The position numbers were made by a program, and so were the translations under genes. A stretch of DNA of 64,000 bases, taken from positions 544,001 through 608,000 of the forward strand of contig CP009479.1 of the NCBI GenBank assembly GCA_000965745.1. The letters are read 5' to 3'. The number at the start of each line of letters is the position of its first letter. Position 1 is the stretch's first letter. The DNA comes from an uncultured archaeon (GTDB lineage: Archaea; Thermoplasmatota; Thermoplasmata; Thermoplasmatales; Thermoplasmataceae). Of this stretch, positions 16,198 to 24,056 are shown piece after piece. The notes beneath the pieces were generated by a model, which did no database searches, was not told the origin of the DNA, and saw nothing but the letters and a program-made list of their open reading frames with translations.

Positions 16198-17442
16198 CTA
16201 TTTTTGTGTTTCAGGCCTGGAAATCTGGCGAGGAGGCTTTATCTGACTTATTTTCTGTATGTAGTCGTCTCCGAAGTGCATCCTGAATAGCCACTCATAT
16301 CCGCCCTTGAGGGATGACCAGTAAATTCTTTCCATGAATTTCTTTTCGACATAGTTTATTGTCGACGGAAATTTCTTTTCGACAGGCCGTTCATAGGTTC
16401 CCACAACAAAGGTCGCCTGATGGTATCCTGTCTCCATGGAACATTGCATTCTACCAGTGAAGAGATACTTGTCTGTCCCTCCCTTGTAATCCTCTATTAT
16501 GTTGCTGGCCACTGTGATGGCCTGAAGATGGGCTTCCACACCTGCTTTTGAAATAGGAATGTTCGTGTTGTCTCCTATTGAGAATGCATAATCGTAATCC
16601 TTTATGTGCATATCCCGCTTGTCTGTGATAACCCAGCCATACTTATCCACAAAATCCGATTTCTTCACAACATCCACTGTTCTGTGCGGAGGTACCAGGA
16701 TCAACTCGTCGTATTCTAGTGAGTCTCCCTCCAAAGACAGAATCTCTTTTTTCTGAGGATCAACATAGTCGAGGTTAAACCCTGTTACGATGTCTATGTT
16801 CCTGTCCTCGTACATCGGCGTTATCACTTCACTGATCGGTTCCGCAGGGTACGCCCTGAGATATGGAGTTACAAACGTGATTTCTACCTTTTCCCTCATT
16901 TTGCGTTTGGCAAAGAATTCGTCAGCCATGAATGCGCCCTCGTTTGGTGAGGGGGGGCATTTGTACGGGAGACCTGCGATGCCGACGACTATCTTTCCAG
17001 ATTTAACCCTGGACATTCTCTCGTAAAGCTCAGCAGATTTTGAGGCGTTGGTATGAAAGTCATGATTAGCTTCGGAAAGGCCGGGGATCTGGCCGGGGTC
17101 TGTCAAACACCCGGTTGCAACAACAATGGTGTCGAAATTATACCTGTTCACGCTTTTTTCAGTTATGACATACCGGTTTTCTATGTCTATAACTGAACAG
17201 TTCTCATGAACGAGCTTCACACCCGGATAGATCAACTGGGTCAGTGACCTCTGCATCCTGCTCGGCCGGGAACCCCTGAATGCCACTCCCAGGTATCCCG
17301 GTTGAAATTCATGGTTTTGCGAACCATCAAAAATTGTTATGGAAATCCGGCCATTCCTCAACTCGTCTCCCATTTCCTTGGCAAGTTTGCTTGCCAGTAT
17401 AAGGCCTCCTGCCCCTCCGCCAACTATCGCAATATCGTTCAT
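16198..17442 (-). CDS. sqr: sulfide:quinone oxidoreductase-like FAD-dependent oxidoreductase
   Basis: IVGGGAGG, YKCPPSPNE, VPPH, IGD, SKAG, CSMETG; in an operon with tusA and dsrE. Confidence 0.82.
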   Translation of the reverse strand: MNDIAIVGGGAGGLILASKLAKEMGDELRNGRISITIFDGSQNHEFQPGYLGVAFRGSRPSRMQRSLTQLIYPGVKLVHENCSVIDIENRYVITEKSVNRYNFDTIVVATGCLTDPGQIPGLSEANHDFHTNASKSAELYERMSRVKSGKIVVGIAGLPYKCPPSPNEGAFMADEFFAKRKMREKVEITFVTPYLRAYPAEPISEVITPMYEDRNIDIVTGFNLDYVDPQKKEILSLEGDSLEYDELILVPPHRTVDVVKKSDFVDKYGWVITDKRDMHIKDYDYAFSIGDNTNIPISKAGVEAHLQAITVASNIIEDYKGGTDKYLFTGRMQCSMETGYHQATFVVGTYERPVEKKFPSTINYVEKKFMERIYWSSLKGGYEWLFRMHFGDDYIQKISQIKPPRQISRPETQK

Positions 17443-17495
17443 TTTAACTCACTCCCTCTTTTTATATGGGCATAGTAGAGGACTGGGGTGATTTT

Positions 17496-17735
17496 TCACC
17501 TCGTCCTTTTCGAAACTATTCTTATCTCTACTTTGTAGACATCATTTTCCTCAGTGATGTTGAGTAGCTCATTCTTGGTCCTCTCGCACCAAGCCTTAGT
17601 ATCCGCTTTCACTCCCGGATCGGTAGCAAGAAGTTCTATCACATCTCCATTGCTGGATTCCCTGTAAGCCCTTATCAGATCGGTAATAGGGCCGGGGCAG
17701 GAAGTACCCCGGCTGTCCACCTTCAGAGTAGTCAT
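17496..17735 (-). CDS. tusA: sulfurtransferase TusA family protein
   Basis: VDSRGTSCPGP, ATDPG, AWC motifs; start placed at MTTLKVD (17735). Confidence 0.9.
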   Translation of the reverse strand: MTTLKVDSRGTSCPGPITDLIRAYRESSNGDVIELLATDPGVKADTKAWCERTKNELLNITEENDVYKVEIRIVSKRTR

Positions 17736-17746
17736 TCTTAACACCC

Positions 17747-18178
17747 TTAGATGAAGATTACCTCTCTGTCTTCGCACATCTGCAGAAATGCTGCTGCCCC
17801 AACAACATCATCAACAATCGGGTCAAGATCATTCTTCGTGTCTATCTTGAATGCGCCGGCCATCATTGAGCAGACATAGACCTTTACATCCCCCATTTCC
17901 TTGGCTTCTTTGAGCATATCGTACCAGGATGGTGCTTTCATCTCCTCCATTCCCTTCATTAGATCCGGGACAAGGTCCTCAAATTCCTTCGGCATTCTGT
18001 TAACCTTCTTGTATCCGTCTTTTCTGAATCCCTGAATTGCCCACCCTGTCACAAATATAGATACAGGCATCTCGAGATTAACCGCCGACTGTGTCAATAC
18101 ACCCAGCGGAATGAACTTATCCGCTGTTCCTGAGAACATTACAAAGTTTAGGCCTTTTTTTGCCATAGAGTCCACCAT
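17747..18178 (-). CDS. DsrE/DsrF-like (DsrE2-type) sulfur carrier
   Basis: FSGTADK, IFVTGWA, AKEMGDVKVYVCSM, VVGAAAFL, C-terminal IFI. Confidence 0.88.
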   Translation of the reverse strand: MVDSMAKKGLNFVMFSGTADKFIPLGVLTQSAVNLEMPVSIFVTGWAIQGFRKDGYKKVNRMPKEFEDLVPDLMKGMEEMKAPSWYDMLKEAKEMGDVKVYVCSMMAGAFKIDTKNDLDPIVDDVVGAAAFLQMCEDREVIFI

Positions 18179-18268
18179 AAAACTAGTTCCAGAAATCTAT
18201 TAATCTGGGCACCTTATGGTTAACGTACCGTGCAGGGTTCCACCGCTAACATTCCTGCATGATGGCTT

Positions 18269-19420
18269 CTATGAAAAAAGTTCTTTCGACACTCCTTTCA
18301 GCCTATCCTCCCTAATTAATTTTACCGTGTCCTTGAGTTCCTTAGTCTGTCGGGGTTTACTTGCCCTTGCAGACATAGCCTTCATCTTCTTCTCTGTCAG
18401 TGCATCAACGTGATCAACGAATTCAACACCCCTGGAAAGCATTGTCCATATGATCTCCAGAAGCTTCCGGGCAACTGCAACAATAGCCCTCTTCATGCCA
18501 ACACGTCTGACAATGCTGAGATACTTCTTCTTCATCCTTCCGGAGTACTTGATGATGTGATGCGCTGCATTCACGAGGATGAAGCGTATCATGGAAGGTC
18601 CGTGCTTCGTTATATGACCACGGTAATCAGTTCCTCCCGACTGGTCCTGTTTCGGCACCAGGCCGGCATAGGATGCAAGCTTCTCCTTAGATTCGAAGCG
18701 TGATACATCATCGATCTCTGAGACGATTGCAGCAGCTGAATAGACATTTATCCCGGGGATTGTCATGAGCAGCTTCACGTCGTTCCTTTCATGGCACATT
18801 CTTGCGATCTCGTCCTCCATTGTTGATTCCCGATCCTTCAGCTCCCTTATCCTTTCAATCATGTCTGAAACGATTATCCTGTCTGATGCACTCATCTTTT
18901 CAGAGGATCTCTCAATCTCACTGAGGCCACGCTTCCCGAAGATATCCGTGGCATCTATGGAGATGCCGTATCTTCCCAGTACAGCATGAACGCGGTTCTT
19001 TATCTCCGTGACCGCATCGCCCAGGGATTTCCTGTACCTGACTATGGAGCGTAGGTCATCTGCCTCCTTTGATGGCAGGTGCACTTCCGGCAATTCTCCC
19101 AGTCTCAGGAGCTTAGCTAGCTTGTATGAATCTTCCTTATCGTTCTTCTTCGAGGTGTTGAAGATCAGTGAAAGCTTCACAGGATCTGCCATGTGCACGG
19201 AGAATCCCATGTCCCTCAGCATCCTGGTGCAGTACTTTCCTGCGGTGGACACTTCCAACGCAATCTCAGGTTCCAGGTAAAGATACCGTTCCATGAACAT
19301 ATTCCAGGAATCGGTGTCATTGCCCATCCTGAACTGCTGTTCAATTGTGCCGCCATTTCCCATTTCCGTAACATACACGCTATTTTTATGTACGTCGCAT
19401 CCAATATAGATTACAACCAC
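18269..19420 (-). CDS. IS110-family DEDD transposase/recombinase
   Basis: YIGCDVHK (D), ALEVS (E), KNDKED (D,D), LMTIPGI, SYAGLVPKQDQSGG (Ser), ITKHG, AIVAVARKL. Confidence 0.96.
   Translation of the reverse strand: MVVIYIGCDVHKNSVYVTEMGNGGTIEQQFRMGNDTDSWNMFMERYLYLEPEIALEVSTAGKYCTRMLRDMGFSVHMADPVKLSLIFNTSKKNDKEDSYKLAKLLRLGELPEVHLPSKEADDLRSIVRYRKSLGDAVTEIKNRVHAVLGRYGISIDATDIFGKRGLSEIERSSEKMSASDRIIVSDMIERIRELKDRESTMEDEIARMCHERNDVKLLMTIPGINVYSAAAIVSEIDDVSRFESKEKLASYAGLVPKQDQSGGTDYRGHITKHGPSMIRFILVNAAHHIIKYSGRMKKKYLSIVRRVGMKRAIVAVARKLLEIIWTMLSRGVEFVDHVDALTEKKMKAMSARASKPRQTKELKDTVKLIREDRLKGVSKELFS
18271..18286. repeat. sub-terminal inverted repeat of the IS110 (transposase 3' end)
   Basis: ATGAAAAAAGTTCTTT versus the reverse complement of 19602-19617, ATGAAAAAAGCTCTTT. 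Confidence 0.85.
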
Positions 19421-19433
19421 CTCCTATGTGGTA

Positions 19434-19597
19434 TGTGAGAGTTTAAAGTCGGAGAATGCTCGACAGTCTTCTATTCACCCTTGTTTCAGGGTAGTATGTC
19501 GAGACGAAGGGCAGCAAATCTCGGGTACGATCTCACAGATCAAGCCATCATACTGCTGCCACTCCGACTCTCACGCTATCATCGTCATGATAGCGTG
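19434..19597 (-). ncRNA. putative IS110 bridge RNA (5' hairpin, target-binding loop, donor-binding loop)
   Basis: Nested stems seen by eye; a 12-nt loop matches the insertion flank 18257-18268 at 11/12; strand and boundaries are inferred. Confidence 0.72.
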
Positions 19598-19601
19598 GAC
19601 A

Positions 19602-19617
19602 AAAGAGCTTTTTTCAT
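19602..19617. repeat. sub-terminal inverted repeat of the IS110 (transposase 5' end)
   Basis: AAAGAGCTTTTTTCAT, inverted copy of 18271-18286. Confidence 0.85.
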
Positions 19618-19905
19618 TGACATCTCCAATAAGCGTGCATCGAGAGAATATGCCTGAACTGGCGAAACGGTTTTACAGGTTTTTAAAATGATTTGATGAG
19701 GGTCAGCAAAAAAAACCCAATTGCAGAAATCCTCTTGTTTTCCATTATATATCACTTCCCACATACTCTTGGCTTTTTCGCTTGTTGTGAGAAGGGTTTT
19801 TTTTCCTTCAACGGGATAGTATAATGGCCTATGTAGGCTAGTCTTAATTCAGGTCCCTTTCAATCTCCCGAATTAAGTATTTATCTTTGAACCTACTAAC
19901 TGTTT

Positions 19906-21043: not shown

Positions 21044-21949
21044 ATGGCATCTAGAAACCAGTTTTTCTACCTTGGCCTTCTTCTCCTGGTTACTTTCTTC
21101 TGGGGGCTCACATTCCCACTGATAAAGAACTCCCTGGAATACATCTCCCCAGTGCTTTTTCTCTCGCTCAGGTTCCTTCTCTCATCACTCCTGCTGCTGC
21201 CATTCCTGAGAAACAAGAATGCTTTCTCCAAAACAAACATAAAATATGGTTTCATTGCCGGTGCATTTCTTTTCATAGGATACTATTTCCAGACGGTTGG
21301 CCTTGAGTTTACGACAGCAGCCAAATCAGGGATTATAACGGGGACTTACGTAGTCCTGATTCCACTGATATCATATTTCTATCTGAGAAAGAAGATCAGG
21401 AGGATGGATTCCATTGCTTCTATTCTGGCGTTCGCCGGATTGATCATAATGTCCGCAGGAAACATATCCAATACACAGGTGCAGATAGGCGATATACTCA
21501 CTCTTATCTGTGCCATCGGATACGCGTTCCAGATAGCATACGTTTCAAAATACACAAAAGATCTTGACTCAACTGTATTCACTTTCTACCAAATCCTTGC
21601 TGTGGGCATTTTCTCCACAATCGCGATTCCAACATACCCCCTGGCGGGACAGGCAATAAACTACTACGTGATCTTCACGATATTCTTCACTGCAGCTTTT
21701 GCGGGTGTTTTCGGATACTACATTAACACCAAGGCGCTCATCTTTGTCGAGCCGACCACGGCAGGAATAATCTTCGTAGGCGAACCCATTTTTGCGGCCA
21801 TAACATCGGTTCTCATCAATGGAGAAATACTCGGAGTTCTCGGCCTGATTGGCGGCGGAACGATGGTAATGGCAATGTTCTTCACAACATTCGACAAATA
21901 CCTTGCAAGCAGGAGGAAAAGGGGTCTTACTCTTCAGAGGGGTCCTTGA
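21044..21949 (+). CDS. DMT/EamA family transporter
   Basis: WGLTFPLIK, FQTVGL, GDILTLICA, EPIFAA; about 10 TM segments. Confidence 0.92.
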   Translation: MASRNQFFYLGLLLLVTFFWGLTFPLIKNSLEYISPVLFLSLRFLLSSLLLLPFLRNKNAFSKTNIKYGFIAGAFLFIGYYFQTVGLEFTTAAKSGIITGTYVVLIPLISYFYLRKKIRRMDSIASILAFAGLIIMSAGNISNTQVQIGDILTLICAIGYAFQIAYVSKYTKDLDSTVFTFYQILAVGIFSTIAIPTYPLAGQAINYYVIFTIFFTAAFAGVFGYYINTKALIFVEPTTAGIIFVGEPIFAAITSVLINGEILGVLGLIGGGTMVMAMFFTTFDKYLASRRKRGLTLQRGP

Positions 21950-23864
21950 TGCTCTTTATGCTGTGATGAGTTTTGACAGCAACACCGCTCCTGTAATCAC
22001 CAATTTCACGCCCGGAAACGCTTGCTCTGCCTACAGCTACAACATTGTCTTTTGAGTCCACCACAATTGTCTCGTTTGAGGCCACAATGCCCCTGTCATA
22101 CTCTGTTATGAACTTGAAAAACACGTTGAATCCCTTCGAGTTATATTCAGCGCTGTCGTCCGTGACTGAAACCCGGAGCCCGGGGTACTCTACTGCATCC
22201 CGGATCCTTTCGGCGCCAGCTACAGTTAGAGTGAAAAAACCATCCTGTGCACGCATAGTGGCCAATATCTGGTCATTCAGCAGTATGTTCCTCAGCCTTC
22301 CTGTTGCACGGGACGTTATTATTCTGCAGCCGTCGGGGAAGAGTGCCTTTCCCACACTATGCCCGAACTGGAGGTCGGCAACAGCCCTTATCTTTTCAAG
22401 GTTGAAATTCCTGGATTTTTCGGTAATATCGGAGTGATCCTTCATCTCTTTCTTCTCAAATACCCATCCCTTGCCGATTATCTTCTCCACCTTCAGGAGT
22501 TCATTCCGATGAAGCCTCTCATCAGTGATATCTGATGAGATGATCTGTTCAATGGGGTAGGTATCCTCAAGCTCAATGGGGACGTATGTGTTGCACCAGG
22601 GCACTAGGAGATTCATGTCATATTTTTCATATATGTCCCTGATAATTCCGTAATCTCTTTTTCCGGGGTTTCTTGAACCGAATGGAAGAATGACTGTTTC
22701 TTTCCTGTTCTCTGTAAGGAACCTCTCGGTGAATTCCGAAAGCCTCTTCAGAGTGGGGTGGCTGTTCGAGTAGCTGTCATAGTAATGAAAGGAGGCTTTC
22801 CTGTAAAGAGGCTCAAATCCCACCAGGTCGCCATTCCTTTCGAGTATGCGCCTGAAGGCCCTGTACAGATAGGGATGGCTGCGTGCCCTAGACTCGGCGT
22901 ACTGCCATAGATTATTCTGGAATATTCTTTCCTTGATCTCGTTTATTTCCATGAATATGGCAGCGAGATTGTGGCGTGACAAAGCTGCTGTCCGTTCTTC
23001 ACTTTCTGCATCCAGCAGTTCTTTTACTGTGTACTTACCGTATATCGGGCTCCATCGAGGAAGTGTCCTCAGCTTCACAAGGTCCCTTGTGCCATCGGGA
23101 TAGAGCATTCTTCCGTCTCTGGCATACTTGACGTATGAAGCGGAATCGAAGAAGTCCACTCCAAGCAGGACCGAAATTGCCAGGAACATAGGGTGTCCTC
23201 CGCCGAACAGGTGTATTGGCTTTGAGAAATCCGAGTTCATCCTGGCCGTAAGAACTATGTCGACGAGCTTGTCATACTGGTAAGATTCCAGAAGGGGCAC
23301 CACCCCGCCCACCGGGAGATATCCTGCATCACTGGAGCTCATGAGCCTAGCCGCCTTTTCCCTCAGGTCCTGATATACGGACCCCTGCACAGGTCCGGCA
23401 ATGATTTCACCGTCACCTACTTCTATTTCCCTCATTCTGCTGTATGTCTCATCGACGGCATCCCTCGCCATCCCGTATGTATCATCAGGTTTCGAGAAAA
23501 TATCCAGTATGGTGATTATATCGCTTCCTATCTTCCGCTGGAAGTCCACAATCCCCCTGTTGTCGTATTCCATGTCACCATATACGTAACTCTGAAACGT
23601 GCCGGAGTCTGTCATTATGGGCCCGTCAAAAGATACCAGGCTGTGGACGCCGTCCTTCAGTGCTTTTTCCCTAAGTGCGTCTGTTCTCCTTATAATATAG
23701 CTGTTGGTTATTATCCCCTGCGCTCCGAGAGATTTCATCTCTTCTGGCGTGATCGTGATCTTGTTGGGGTTGATTACAGGAAGCACTGTTGGAGTTTCAA
23801 TCACCCCATGCTTGGTTTTGAACTTGCCTATTCTGGCCAATCCGTCTCTATGAACCAGTTCCAT
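21927..23864 (-). CDS. tgtA: tRNA-guanine(15) transglycosylase (archaeosine TGT) with PUA domain
   Basis: DGLARIG, TDSGTFQ, GGVVPLLE, HLFGGGHP, DFFDSASY, C-terminal PUA; alternative TTG start at 23888. Confidence 0.95.
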   Translation of the reverse strand: MELVHRDGLARIGKFKTKHGVIETPTVLPVINPNKITITPEEMKSLGAQGIITNSYIIRRTDALREKALKDGVHSLVSFDGPIMTDSGTFQSYVYGDMEYDNRGIVDFQRKIGSDIITILDIFSKPDDTYGMARDAVDETYSRMREIEVGDGEIIAGPVQGSVYQDLREKAARLMSSSDAGYLPVGGVVPLLESYQYDKLVDIVLTARMNSDFSKPIHLFGGGHPMFLAISVLLGVDFFDSASYVKYARDGRMLYPDGTRDLVKLRTLPRWSPIYGKYTVKELLDAESEERTAALSRHNLAAIFMEINEIKERIFQNNLWQYAESRARSHPYLYRAFRRILERNGDLVGFEPLYRKASFHYYDSYSNSHPTLKRLSEFTERFLTENRKETVILPFGSRNPGKRDYGIIRDIYEKYDMNLLVPWCNTYVPIELEDTYPIEQIISSDITDERLHRNELLKVEKIIGKGWVFEKKEMKDHSDITEKSRNFNLEKIRAVADLQFGHSVGKALFPDGCRIITSRATGRLRNILLNDQILATMRAQDGFFTLTVAGAERIRDAVEYPGLRVSVTDDSAEYNSKGFNVFFKFITEYDRGIVASNETIVVDSKDNVVAVGRASVSGREIGDYRSGVAVKTHHSIKSIKDPSEE

Positions 23865-24056
23865 TTCAATCAATTCTCTTCGCGTCAAAGGTTTTCCTTC
23901 ACCTGCTGACCGAACTTGAATGCGGTGGGCAATAAATTACTTCGCAGTTCAGCGGCATATATTCTTCACACCCATCAAGCTGTTTCATCCAGCCGGAATT
24001 ACAGGTTCCGGATGCCAGTCAGGTTCTGTGTTGTAATCTAAGTGCAGTTCAGCCGT

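What the first reader, a model, noticed from the sequence alone, without database searches (positions are those of the whole stretch)
19434..19597. Archaeal IS110 bridge-RNA candidate whose guide loop matches its own insertion site
Seen in sequence, reading the transposase (minus) strand. (1) A 5' hairpin, CACGCUAUCAU-GACG-AUGAUAGCGUG. (2) An enclosing helix: plus-strand AGTCGGAG (19447-19454) pairs with CTCCGACT (19562-19569). (3) Inside it, two stem / internal-loop / stem units. Unit 1 (19560->19510) is GGCAGCA-[GUAUGAUGGCUU]-GAUCU-GUG-AGAUC-[GUACCCGAGAUU]-UGCUGCC. Its 12-nt left loop matches the chromosomal flank just outside the other IS end (GCATGATGGCTT, 18257-18268) at 11/12, and the one difference permits a G-U wobble. 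Its right loop GAGA is complementary to TCTC, the core plus the first base of the far flank. Unit 2 (19503->19459) is CUCGACA-UACU-ACCCU-GAAACA-AGGGU-[GAAUAGAAGAC]-UGUCGAG. It contains GACAU and AUAGA, which fit the predicted circle junction TGACA-TCT-ATG; this match is weaker. Established: IS110 recombinases such as IS621 use a bridge RNA with target- and donor-binding loops. Inference: this is an intact RNA-guided recombinase from a probably acidophilic archaeon. Its long guide reads the strand opposite to the transposase, which from memory is the reverse of the IS621 arrangement.
Basis: partly seen in the sequence, partly recalled or inferred. Interest (0 to 1): 0.88.

Follow-up and report, generated by a model that had tools for sequence, protein, structure and literature searches.

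The report
Archaeal bridge RNA with swapped ends
This is the guide RNA of an archaeal RNA-guided jumping gene (IS110 family), and its loops track the insertion sites of many relatives; it is a known kind of system, but a sister lineage with the same RNA and swapped DNA ends suggests the 'reversed' guide order is only a matter of orientation.

Summary
Confirmed, with corrections. The region encodes the predicted bridge RNA of an intact 1.36-kb IS110-family element (DEDD and catalytic serine present) of Thermoplasmatales-type archaea. The core is CT, not TCT. The left target guide has 11 nt with the core (10/11 plus a wobble). The right guide has 9 nt; it fits this site poorly but pairs 7 nt in a row at a second site of a 98% identical copy. 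Across orthologs both guides track their own flanks (0/50,000 permutations), only in the anti-transposase polarity. Donor and handshake guides change together with the element ends. This polarity, the long subterminal repeats and the 7/3 end spacing are known IS1111 traits; an upstream RNA with IS1111 ends is already tabulated (ISHvo9, ISMac14). Not found in the papers read: a sister clade (about 50% identical) keeps the same RNA with its ends swapped, giving IS621 polarity. So guide order looks like cassette orientation, not a different mechanism. Expression and activity were not shown. This scan earlier noted a Thermoplasmata relic and an Asgard element with reversed polarity.

The parts
18257..18265 (+). 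Left target (LT), host DNA read by the left target guide
   Evidence: 8/9 plus one U-G wobble to the guide; a near-identical copy at another site shares GATGG
18266..18267 (+). CT core at the LT/right-donor junction
   Evidence: CT in 30/34 orthologous junctions; a contig with another flank diverges exactly before 18266
18268..18270 (+). 3-nt terminal extension of the element (right donor, TCT), read by the right donor guide
   Evidence: TCT 29, CCT 4, ACT 1 of 34 junctions whatever the target; covaries with the guide
18271..18286 (+). Subterminal inverted repeat at the transposase 3' end (10 bp perfect, 15/16 with its partner)
   Evidence: sequence; conserved in orthologs
18269..19420 (-). 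IS110-family recombinase, 383 aa as called (likely 380 aa from ATC at 19411); D9/E56/D94/D97 and S261
   Evidence: PF01548 and PF02371; NF033542 232 bits against a cut-off of 140; motifs; start codon comparison
19435..19597 (-). Predicted bridge RNA: 5' hairpin, enclosing helix, target-binding loop, donor-binding loop
   Evidence: fold and covariation; transcript ends not measured
19572..19597 (-). 5' stem-loop with a conserved loop
   Evidence: 6 of 9 pairs with compensatory changes
19543..19553 (-). Left target guide, 9 nt plus core CU, followed by a conserved UG(A/G)
   Evidence: permutation test 5.16/9 against 2.78 +/- 0.31
19520..19528 (-). Right target guide, 7 nt plus core AG
   Evidence: 3.63/7 against 1.78 +/- 0.24; core plus 5 nt paired at the L049 site
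19518..19519 (-). Target-loop handshake guide (AU), pairs donor positions 6-7 after strand exchange
   Evidence: complementary to the donor in 27/28 distinct guide sets, four states
19496..19500 (-). Left donor guide GACAU (5 nt, no core; partly inside a predicted stem)
   Evidence: equals donor positions 3-7 in 20/24, four states
19466..19474 (-). Right donor guide AUAGAAG (19468-19474) and donor-loop handshake AC (19466-19467)
   Evidence: complement of core plus right donor in 23/24, three states
19602..19617 (+). Subterminal inverted repeat at the RNA-proximal end
   Evidence: sequence
19618..19623 (+). Left donor TGACAT (6 nt here; 5 nt in 25 of 41 orthologous ends)
19624..19625 (+). CT core at the left-donor/right-target junction; end of the element
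   Evidence: CT in 40/41; contigs with other flanks diverge after 19625 and 19626
19626..19632 (+). Right target (RT), weakly matched here (3 of 7, only the first base next to the core)

Best explanation
The region encodes the bridge RNA of an autonomous IS110-family insertion sequence (window 18268-19625 plus one CT core). The RNA is read from the transposase strand and has the IS621 layout: 5' hairpin, target loop (left guide, right guide, handshake), donor loop (left guide, right guide, handshake). It brings together a host target (ideal GTATGATGG-CT-CGGGTAC) and the element's circle junction (TGACAT-CT-TCT-AT) for exchange at the CT core by the DEDD/serine recombinase, driven forward by handshake pairs (1 before, 3 after exchange, as in wild-type IS621). 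The 'top' strand of target and donor is the strand opposite to the transposase: the long end extension lies upstream and the 3-nt extension downstream, as in IS1111 elements. Shown here: sequence, structure covariation, guide-target and guide-donor covariation, boundaries. Inferred from IS621: transcription (possibly from the circle junction), protein binding, tetramer chemistry. This copy was placed mainly by its left guide.
For: Clade A permutation: left guide 5.16/9 against 2.78 (18 guides, 27 sites), right guide 3.63/7 against 1.78 (19 guides, 33 sites), both 0/50,000, and unchanged without the window element; the IS621 polarity gives null values. A 98% identical copy with identical loops sits at another site that fits both guides. 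Handshake equals the donor complement in 27/28; donor guides 20/24 and 23/24. Handshake pairs rise after exchange in 17 of 25 insertions and never fall; IS621 values from PMC13626964. Catalytic residues match IS621 D11/E60/D102/D105/S241. The one left-guide mismatch is a U-G wobble only if the RNA is the minus strand (sequence).
Against: No transcript or activity was observed. Orthologs are kin, so the permutation p-values overstate independence even after removing duplicate guides. The left donor guide lacks the core and overlaps a predicted stem, unlike the longer IS621 guide. At this site the right guide matches only the core plus one base. Some orthologous sites fit poorly (L001, L009, L014, L050, L096). 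The left-guide register varies by one base between orthologs.
Confidence: 0.9

Rival explanations
1. The RNA guides only the target; the donor is recognised by protein contacts to the long subterminal repeats (the seekRNA view for IS1111), and the second loop is a structural part or is processed away.
For: 10-16 bp inverted repeats; short, core-less left donor guide partly buried in a stem; Siddiquee et al. found 70-100 nt seekRNAs sufficient for ISEc11 (PMC11187229).
Against: Both donor-loop strands and the target-loop handshake change in step with the donor across 3-4 sequence states; in the sister clade the right donor guide follows the swapped end. A purely structural loop would not do this. 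A hybrid (RNA plus repeat contacts) remains possible.
Confidence: 0.07
2. This copy is a fixed relic: the RNA fold persists but the element no longer moves.
For: One full copy in the genome, plus end fragments; the same site is occupied in runs of two studies; likely non-AUG start.
Against: Open frame, catalytic residues, both ends and all guides are intact; near-identical copies occur at other sites; the ATC/ATA start is shared across the clade. This rival concerns activity, not identity.
Confidence: 0.15
3. The match is chance or a local duplication of flank into the element, and the structure is a translational or terminator element.
For: Both strands fold similarly.
Against: The same guide occurs in a copy at a different site with a matching target; 18-19 different guides each match their own flanks; the 12-mer is rare in the genome.
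Confidence: 0.01

Closest known systems
IS621 / ISCro4 (IS622) bridge RNA and recombinase, IS110 group (PMC11208160, PMC11208158, PMC13626964)
   Same: RNA upstream of the recombinase; 5' hairpin plus two internal-loop units; CT core at positions 8-9; left guide then right guide; AU handshake pairing donor AT; 1 pair before and 3 after exchange; DEDD plus serine.
   Different: Target and donor top strand is antisense to the transposase; 10-16 bp subterminal repeats instead of 2-3 bp; guides up to 9+2 and 7+2 nt against 7+2 and 2+2; left donor guide of 5 nt without the core; the two loops are enclosed by a further helix; the protein is only distantly similar (E 4e-9 to ISCro4).
IS1111-family seekRNA elements (ISEc11, IS4321, ISKpn4; PMC11187229)
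   Same: [quoted passage not shown]
   Different: The RNA lies upstream, not downstream; donor guides lie in a simple internal loop; placement of the protein with IS1111 proper is unresolved.
ISHvo9 / ISHvo10 / ISH18 and ISMac14 (archaeal; ISHvo9 and ISMac14 listed as 'LE, IS1111' in the supplement of PMC11208160)
   Same: Archaeal, IS1111-type with the RNA predicted in the left end. Haloarchaeal elements whose N-termini resemble ISHvo9 (35% identical to this protein) show the same 5+2+3 donor, guides and polarity.
   Different: Different hosts and cores (CT or CA); I found no published reading of their guides. The link of L127/L144/L145 to ISHvo9 rests on N-terminal resemblance only.

Membership tests
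IS110 family (broad) RNA-guided recombinase | N-terminal DEDD RuvC domain and C-terminal Tnp domain with catalytic serine | tested here: met
   PF01548, PF02371; NF033542 above cut-off; D9/E56/D94/D97, S261
IS110 family (broad) RNA-guided recombinase | Short core at both boundaries, conservative insertion | tested here: met
   CT at both ends; 30/34 and 40/41 in orthologs; boundaries seen in other contigs
Bridge RNA (IS621 type) | Conserved fold with two internal loops | tested here: met
   donor-loop stems are invariant and thus weakly tested
Bridge RNA (IS621 type) | Target loop covaries with both target halves | tested here: met
   0/50,000 for each guide
Bridge RNA (IS621 type) | Donor loop covaries with the circle junction | tested here: met
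   right guide 23/24, left guide 20/24 but only 5 nt and without core
Bridge RNA (IS621 type) | Handshake guides favour the exchanged state | tested here: met
   27/28; mean 1.3 pairs before, 2.6 after
Bridge RNA (IS621 type) | RNA is expressed, binds the recombinase and is needed for recombination | not testable with these tools
   no RNA holder listed; needs bench work
IS110 subgroup (IS621-like) | RNA in the left end, upstream of the recombinase | tested here: met
IS110 subgroup (IS621-like) | Short or absent subterminal repeats; guides read the transposase strand as top | tested here: not met
   10-16 bp repeats; IS621 polarity gives null values. Not filed in this subgroup.
IS1111 subgroup | Subterminal repeats of 7-17 bp with 7 bp left and 3 bp right extensions | tested here: met
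   5+2 upstream in 25/41 (6+2 in the window), 3 downstream
IS1111 subgroup | Reversed guide order relative to IS110-type | tested here: met
   against PMC11187229
IS1111 subgroup | Non-coding region downstream of the transposase | tested here: not met
   the stop codon abuts the right end; published exceptions exist (ISMtsp17, ISHvo9, ISMac14). Not filed as IS1111 proper.
IS1111 subgroup | Transposase groups with IS1111 over its full length | tested here: inconclusive
   deep forks open, long branches, one IS110-group reference only

The most novel reading that the evidence does not exclude
Within one archaeal clade the recombinase-plus-RNA cassette has flipped between its two symmetric ends. 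Clade A (this element) has IS1111 polarity; its sister clade B, about 50% identical and with the same upstream RNA, has the same 5+2+3 donor in IS621 polarity, and B is the derived state. The 'reversed guide order' taken as a sign that IS110 and IS1111 may work differently would then be only cassette orientation over one shared mechanism, and these elements are an upstream-RNA, long-repeat link between the two subgroups, with targets of up to 18 bp.
Probability: 0.7. Interest if true: 0.55.

Novelty: new variant of a known kind. Interest (0 to 1): 0.43.

Why it matters
Siddiquee et al. (PMC11187229) concluded from the reversed guide order that the IS110 and IS1111 mechanisms cannot be assumed to be the same. 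Here an element with IS1111-type ends and order follows every IS621 pairing rule, including the handshake, and a close sister clade has the ends swapped. The A/B pair makes that question directly testable by exchanging RNAs, ends and proteins. It also gives a fully readable archaeal bridge system with a CT core and longer guides (up to 18 bp) as a candidate for archaeal genetics and ortholog screens; I found no bench study of an archaeal bridge RNA in the library searched. The mechanism itself is known, so this extends a class and does not found one.

Tried and rejected
TCT core: rejected, because the 3 nt next to the repeat are invariant or follow the donor guide, not the target. My first reading of a 1-nt guide overlap fell with it. 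IS621 polarity for clade A: null. Rfam: nothing near a gathering score. RNA runs: no RNA holder listed; this says nothing on expression. Empty orthologous site: congeners G001-G003 lack a match to the element, but the intergenic DNA is too diverged and rearranged to show the empty target. A conserved natural target gene: the 14-nt ideal site occurs once in 103 family genomes, like the reversed control, and no site better than 14/18 exists in this genome. Insertion of orthologs beside tRNA genes: flanks looked tRNA-like but ARAGORN found none. A sigma-70 promoter scan does not apply to archaea and gave chance levels. Deep placement in IS110 or IS1111: unresolved. Two parsing scripts failed and were redone; one search holds no valid target-loop parse. 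No fold or complex prediction was run, as family membership was clear from profiles.

Full report
Setting. The finding lies just upstream of a 383-codon ORF (18269-19420, minus) with DEDD_Tnp_IS110 and Transposase_20 domains that passes the NCBIfam IS110 cut-off. D9, E56, D94, D97 and S261 correspond to the IS621 catalytic residues. The element sits between a DsrE/TusA/oxidoreductase cluster and an FAD-dependent enzyme gene. The 2.23-Mb genome has one full copy. Relatives at 55-72% identity come from Thermoplasmata, including Cuniculiplasma and E-plasma. Archaeal origin is therefore well supported; acidophily is an inference.

Observation. The minus strand folds with z -6.0 and the plus strand with z -5.7. 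In 23 orthologous RNAs the structure has 17 pairs with compensatory changes, beats all 500 shuffles and collapses when partners are slid. The loop-flank match is rare: 8 sites within one mismatch in 4.45 Mb, two being the guide and this flank.

Boundaries corrected. Nearly all orthologs end, on the transposase strand, in repeat-CAT, then AGA or AGG, then AG, whatever their target. So the 3 nt at 18268-18270 belong to the element and the core is CT at 18266-18267 and 19624-19625 (30/34 and 40/41 junctions). Metagenome contigs with other flanks leave the window sequence just before 18266 and just after 19625-19626. The empty site is GCATGATGG-CT-CCAATAA and the donor junction TGACAT-CT-TCT between two repeats (10 bp perfect, 15/16). 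Most orthologs have 5+2+3 nt between the repeats; the window has one extra base.

Target loop. With this core the left guide is GUAUGAUGG-CU and the right guide GUACCCG-AG. A 98% identical copy with the same loops (L049) lies at a different site, CTACGATGG-CT-CGGGTCA: 7/9 plus a wobble on the left, core plus five bases on the right. The same site appears in run X4. The right guide is thus long and real; the window copy was placed mostly by its left guide (right side 3/7). Over clade A, left guides match their own flank at 5.16/9 against 2.78 +/- 0.31 under permutation (18 guides, 27 sites) and right guides at 3.63/7 against 1.78 +/- 0.24 (19 guides, 33 sites), 0/50,000 each, with matches highest near the core on the right. 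Leaving out the window element changes nothing. The IS621 polarity gives null values. Kinship inflates these p-values, but each distinct guide was counted once. Imperfect natural sites are common; partial-match insertion is described for IS621 (10.64898/2026.08.31.748434), though there for donor-half matches.

Donor loop and handshake. The right donor guide is the complement of core plus right donor in 23/24 guide sets over three states. The 5-nt left donor guide equals donor positions 3-7 in 20/24 over four states. The two bases after the right target guide complement donor positions 6-7 in 27/28 over four states. For the window, handshake pairs go from 1 to 3 on exchange, the numbers given for wild-type IS621. 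One oddity stays: the left donor guide lacks the core and its first three bases lie in a predicted stem, so the long repeats may share in donor recognition (inference).

Polarity. The 5' guide is complementary to the transposase strand beyond the downstream end, the reverse of IS621. Siddiquee et al. report this order for IS1111-type elements, with repeats set 7 bp and 3 bp from the left and right ends, and note a few with an upstream non-coding region (PMC11187229). The window's ends fit that geometry, and IS4321 ends in the same CAT-AGA. The supplement of Durrant et al. lists ISHvo9 and ISMac14 as IS1111 with the RNA in the left end. Haloarchaeal and Pseudosulfitobacter relatives at about 35% identity show the same upstream RNA, 5+2+3 donor and reversed polarity; Bradyrhizobium relatives share the ends but their sites fit the left guide poorly. 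The reversal is hence a known trait, not a property special to this element.

Sister clade with swapped ends. The same genomes hold a clade B, 45-51% identical, sister to clade A (98/98). It has the same upstream RNA scaffold, but its upstream end is CT-ACT-repeat and its downstream end repeat-GACAC-CT: the clade A ends exchanged. Its donor and handshake guides follow these ends. Its target guides fit the IS621 polarity (p 0.005 and 0.03 with a flexible register, 7-8 partly related elements) and not the window's; a fixed-register test of the left guide was null because the junction has a short ACT repeat, so the target test for B is modest while the end sequences are plain. An AU test rejects a clade of window-polarity elements without B (p 0.0003), so B is the derived flip, given a root outside these groups. 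I did not find this in the papers read. It argues that guide order reflects which way the cassette sits between symmetric ends.

Verdict. A real, well-supported bridge RNA gene that works like IS621, with IS1111-type ends. It is a member of the broad IS110 family but fails one defining feature of each subgroup. Expression and activity are untested. Earlier notes of this scan describe a Thermoplasmata relic and an Asgard element with reversed polarity; they were read after my analysis and are not evidence. Interest 0.43.

Noticed in passing
window 19409-19424 (minus): The codon 6 nt after the GGAGGTG ribosome site, where L050 has ATG, is ATC here and ATC or ATA in most clade A members. A non-AUG start would give 380 aa and may limit expression.
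   Followed up: partly
G000 C1:1500226-1500284; motifs at 1613122 (-) and 984238 (+): Relics of related elements in this genome: a left end with only the 5' hairpin, and two lone right-end motifs.
   Followed up: partly
L001 about 2300-2330 (also L003, L010, L118): A clade A and a clade B element sit head to head, joined as A left donor-CT-B right donor. The far end of A carries the B-type ACT, and the B left guide fits the flank there (7 nt). Possibly a composite that moved as one.
   Followed up: partly
L074, L094, L100; clade B L104-L107: Extra 3-nt units at the right-donor junction (5 of 49 clade A junctions; ACT-ACT in clade B), perhaps slippage of the right donor guide; some may be chance target bases.
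   Followed up: partly
L021-L023, L122-L124: A third Thermoplasmatales IS110 clade (30-34% identity) has a long upstream extension, a short downstream one and a long structured region downstream of the gene, the usual IS1111 layout. Its RNA was not analysed.
   Followed up: no
L062, L075-L084: These orthologs are inserted inside IS5-type transposase genes (DUF772 upstream, DDE_Tnp_1 downstream).
   Followed up: no
L066-L074, L085: The same recombinase protein occurs with different target loops (P0007 with two loop sets) and different proteins share one loop set, which suggests exchange of RNA modules between elements or chimeric assembly.
   Followed up: no
L013 / L039:3213-3383: A clade A element interrupted by other DNA within its 5' part.
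   Followed up: no
window 16198-18178 (minus): DsrE-like, TusA and sulfide-dehydrogenase-like flavoprotein genes in a row: a likely sulfur-handling operon directly downstream of the element.
   Followed up: no
window 21927-23888 (minus): Archaeal-type tRNA-guanine transglycosylase with TGT_C2 and PUA domains, consistent with an archaeal host.
   Followed up: no
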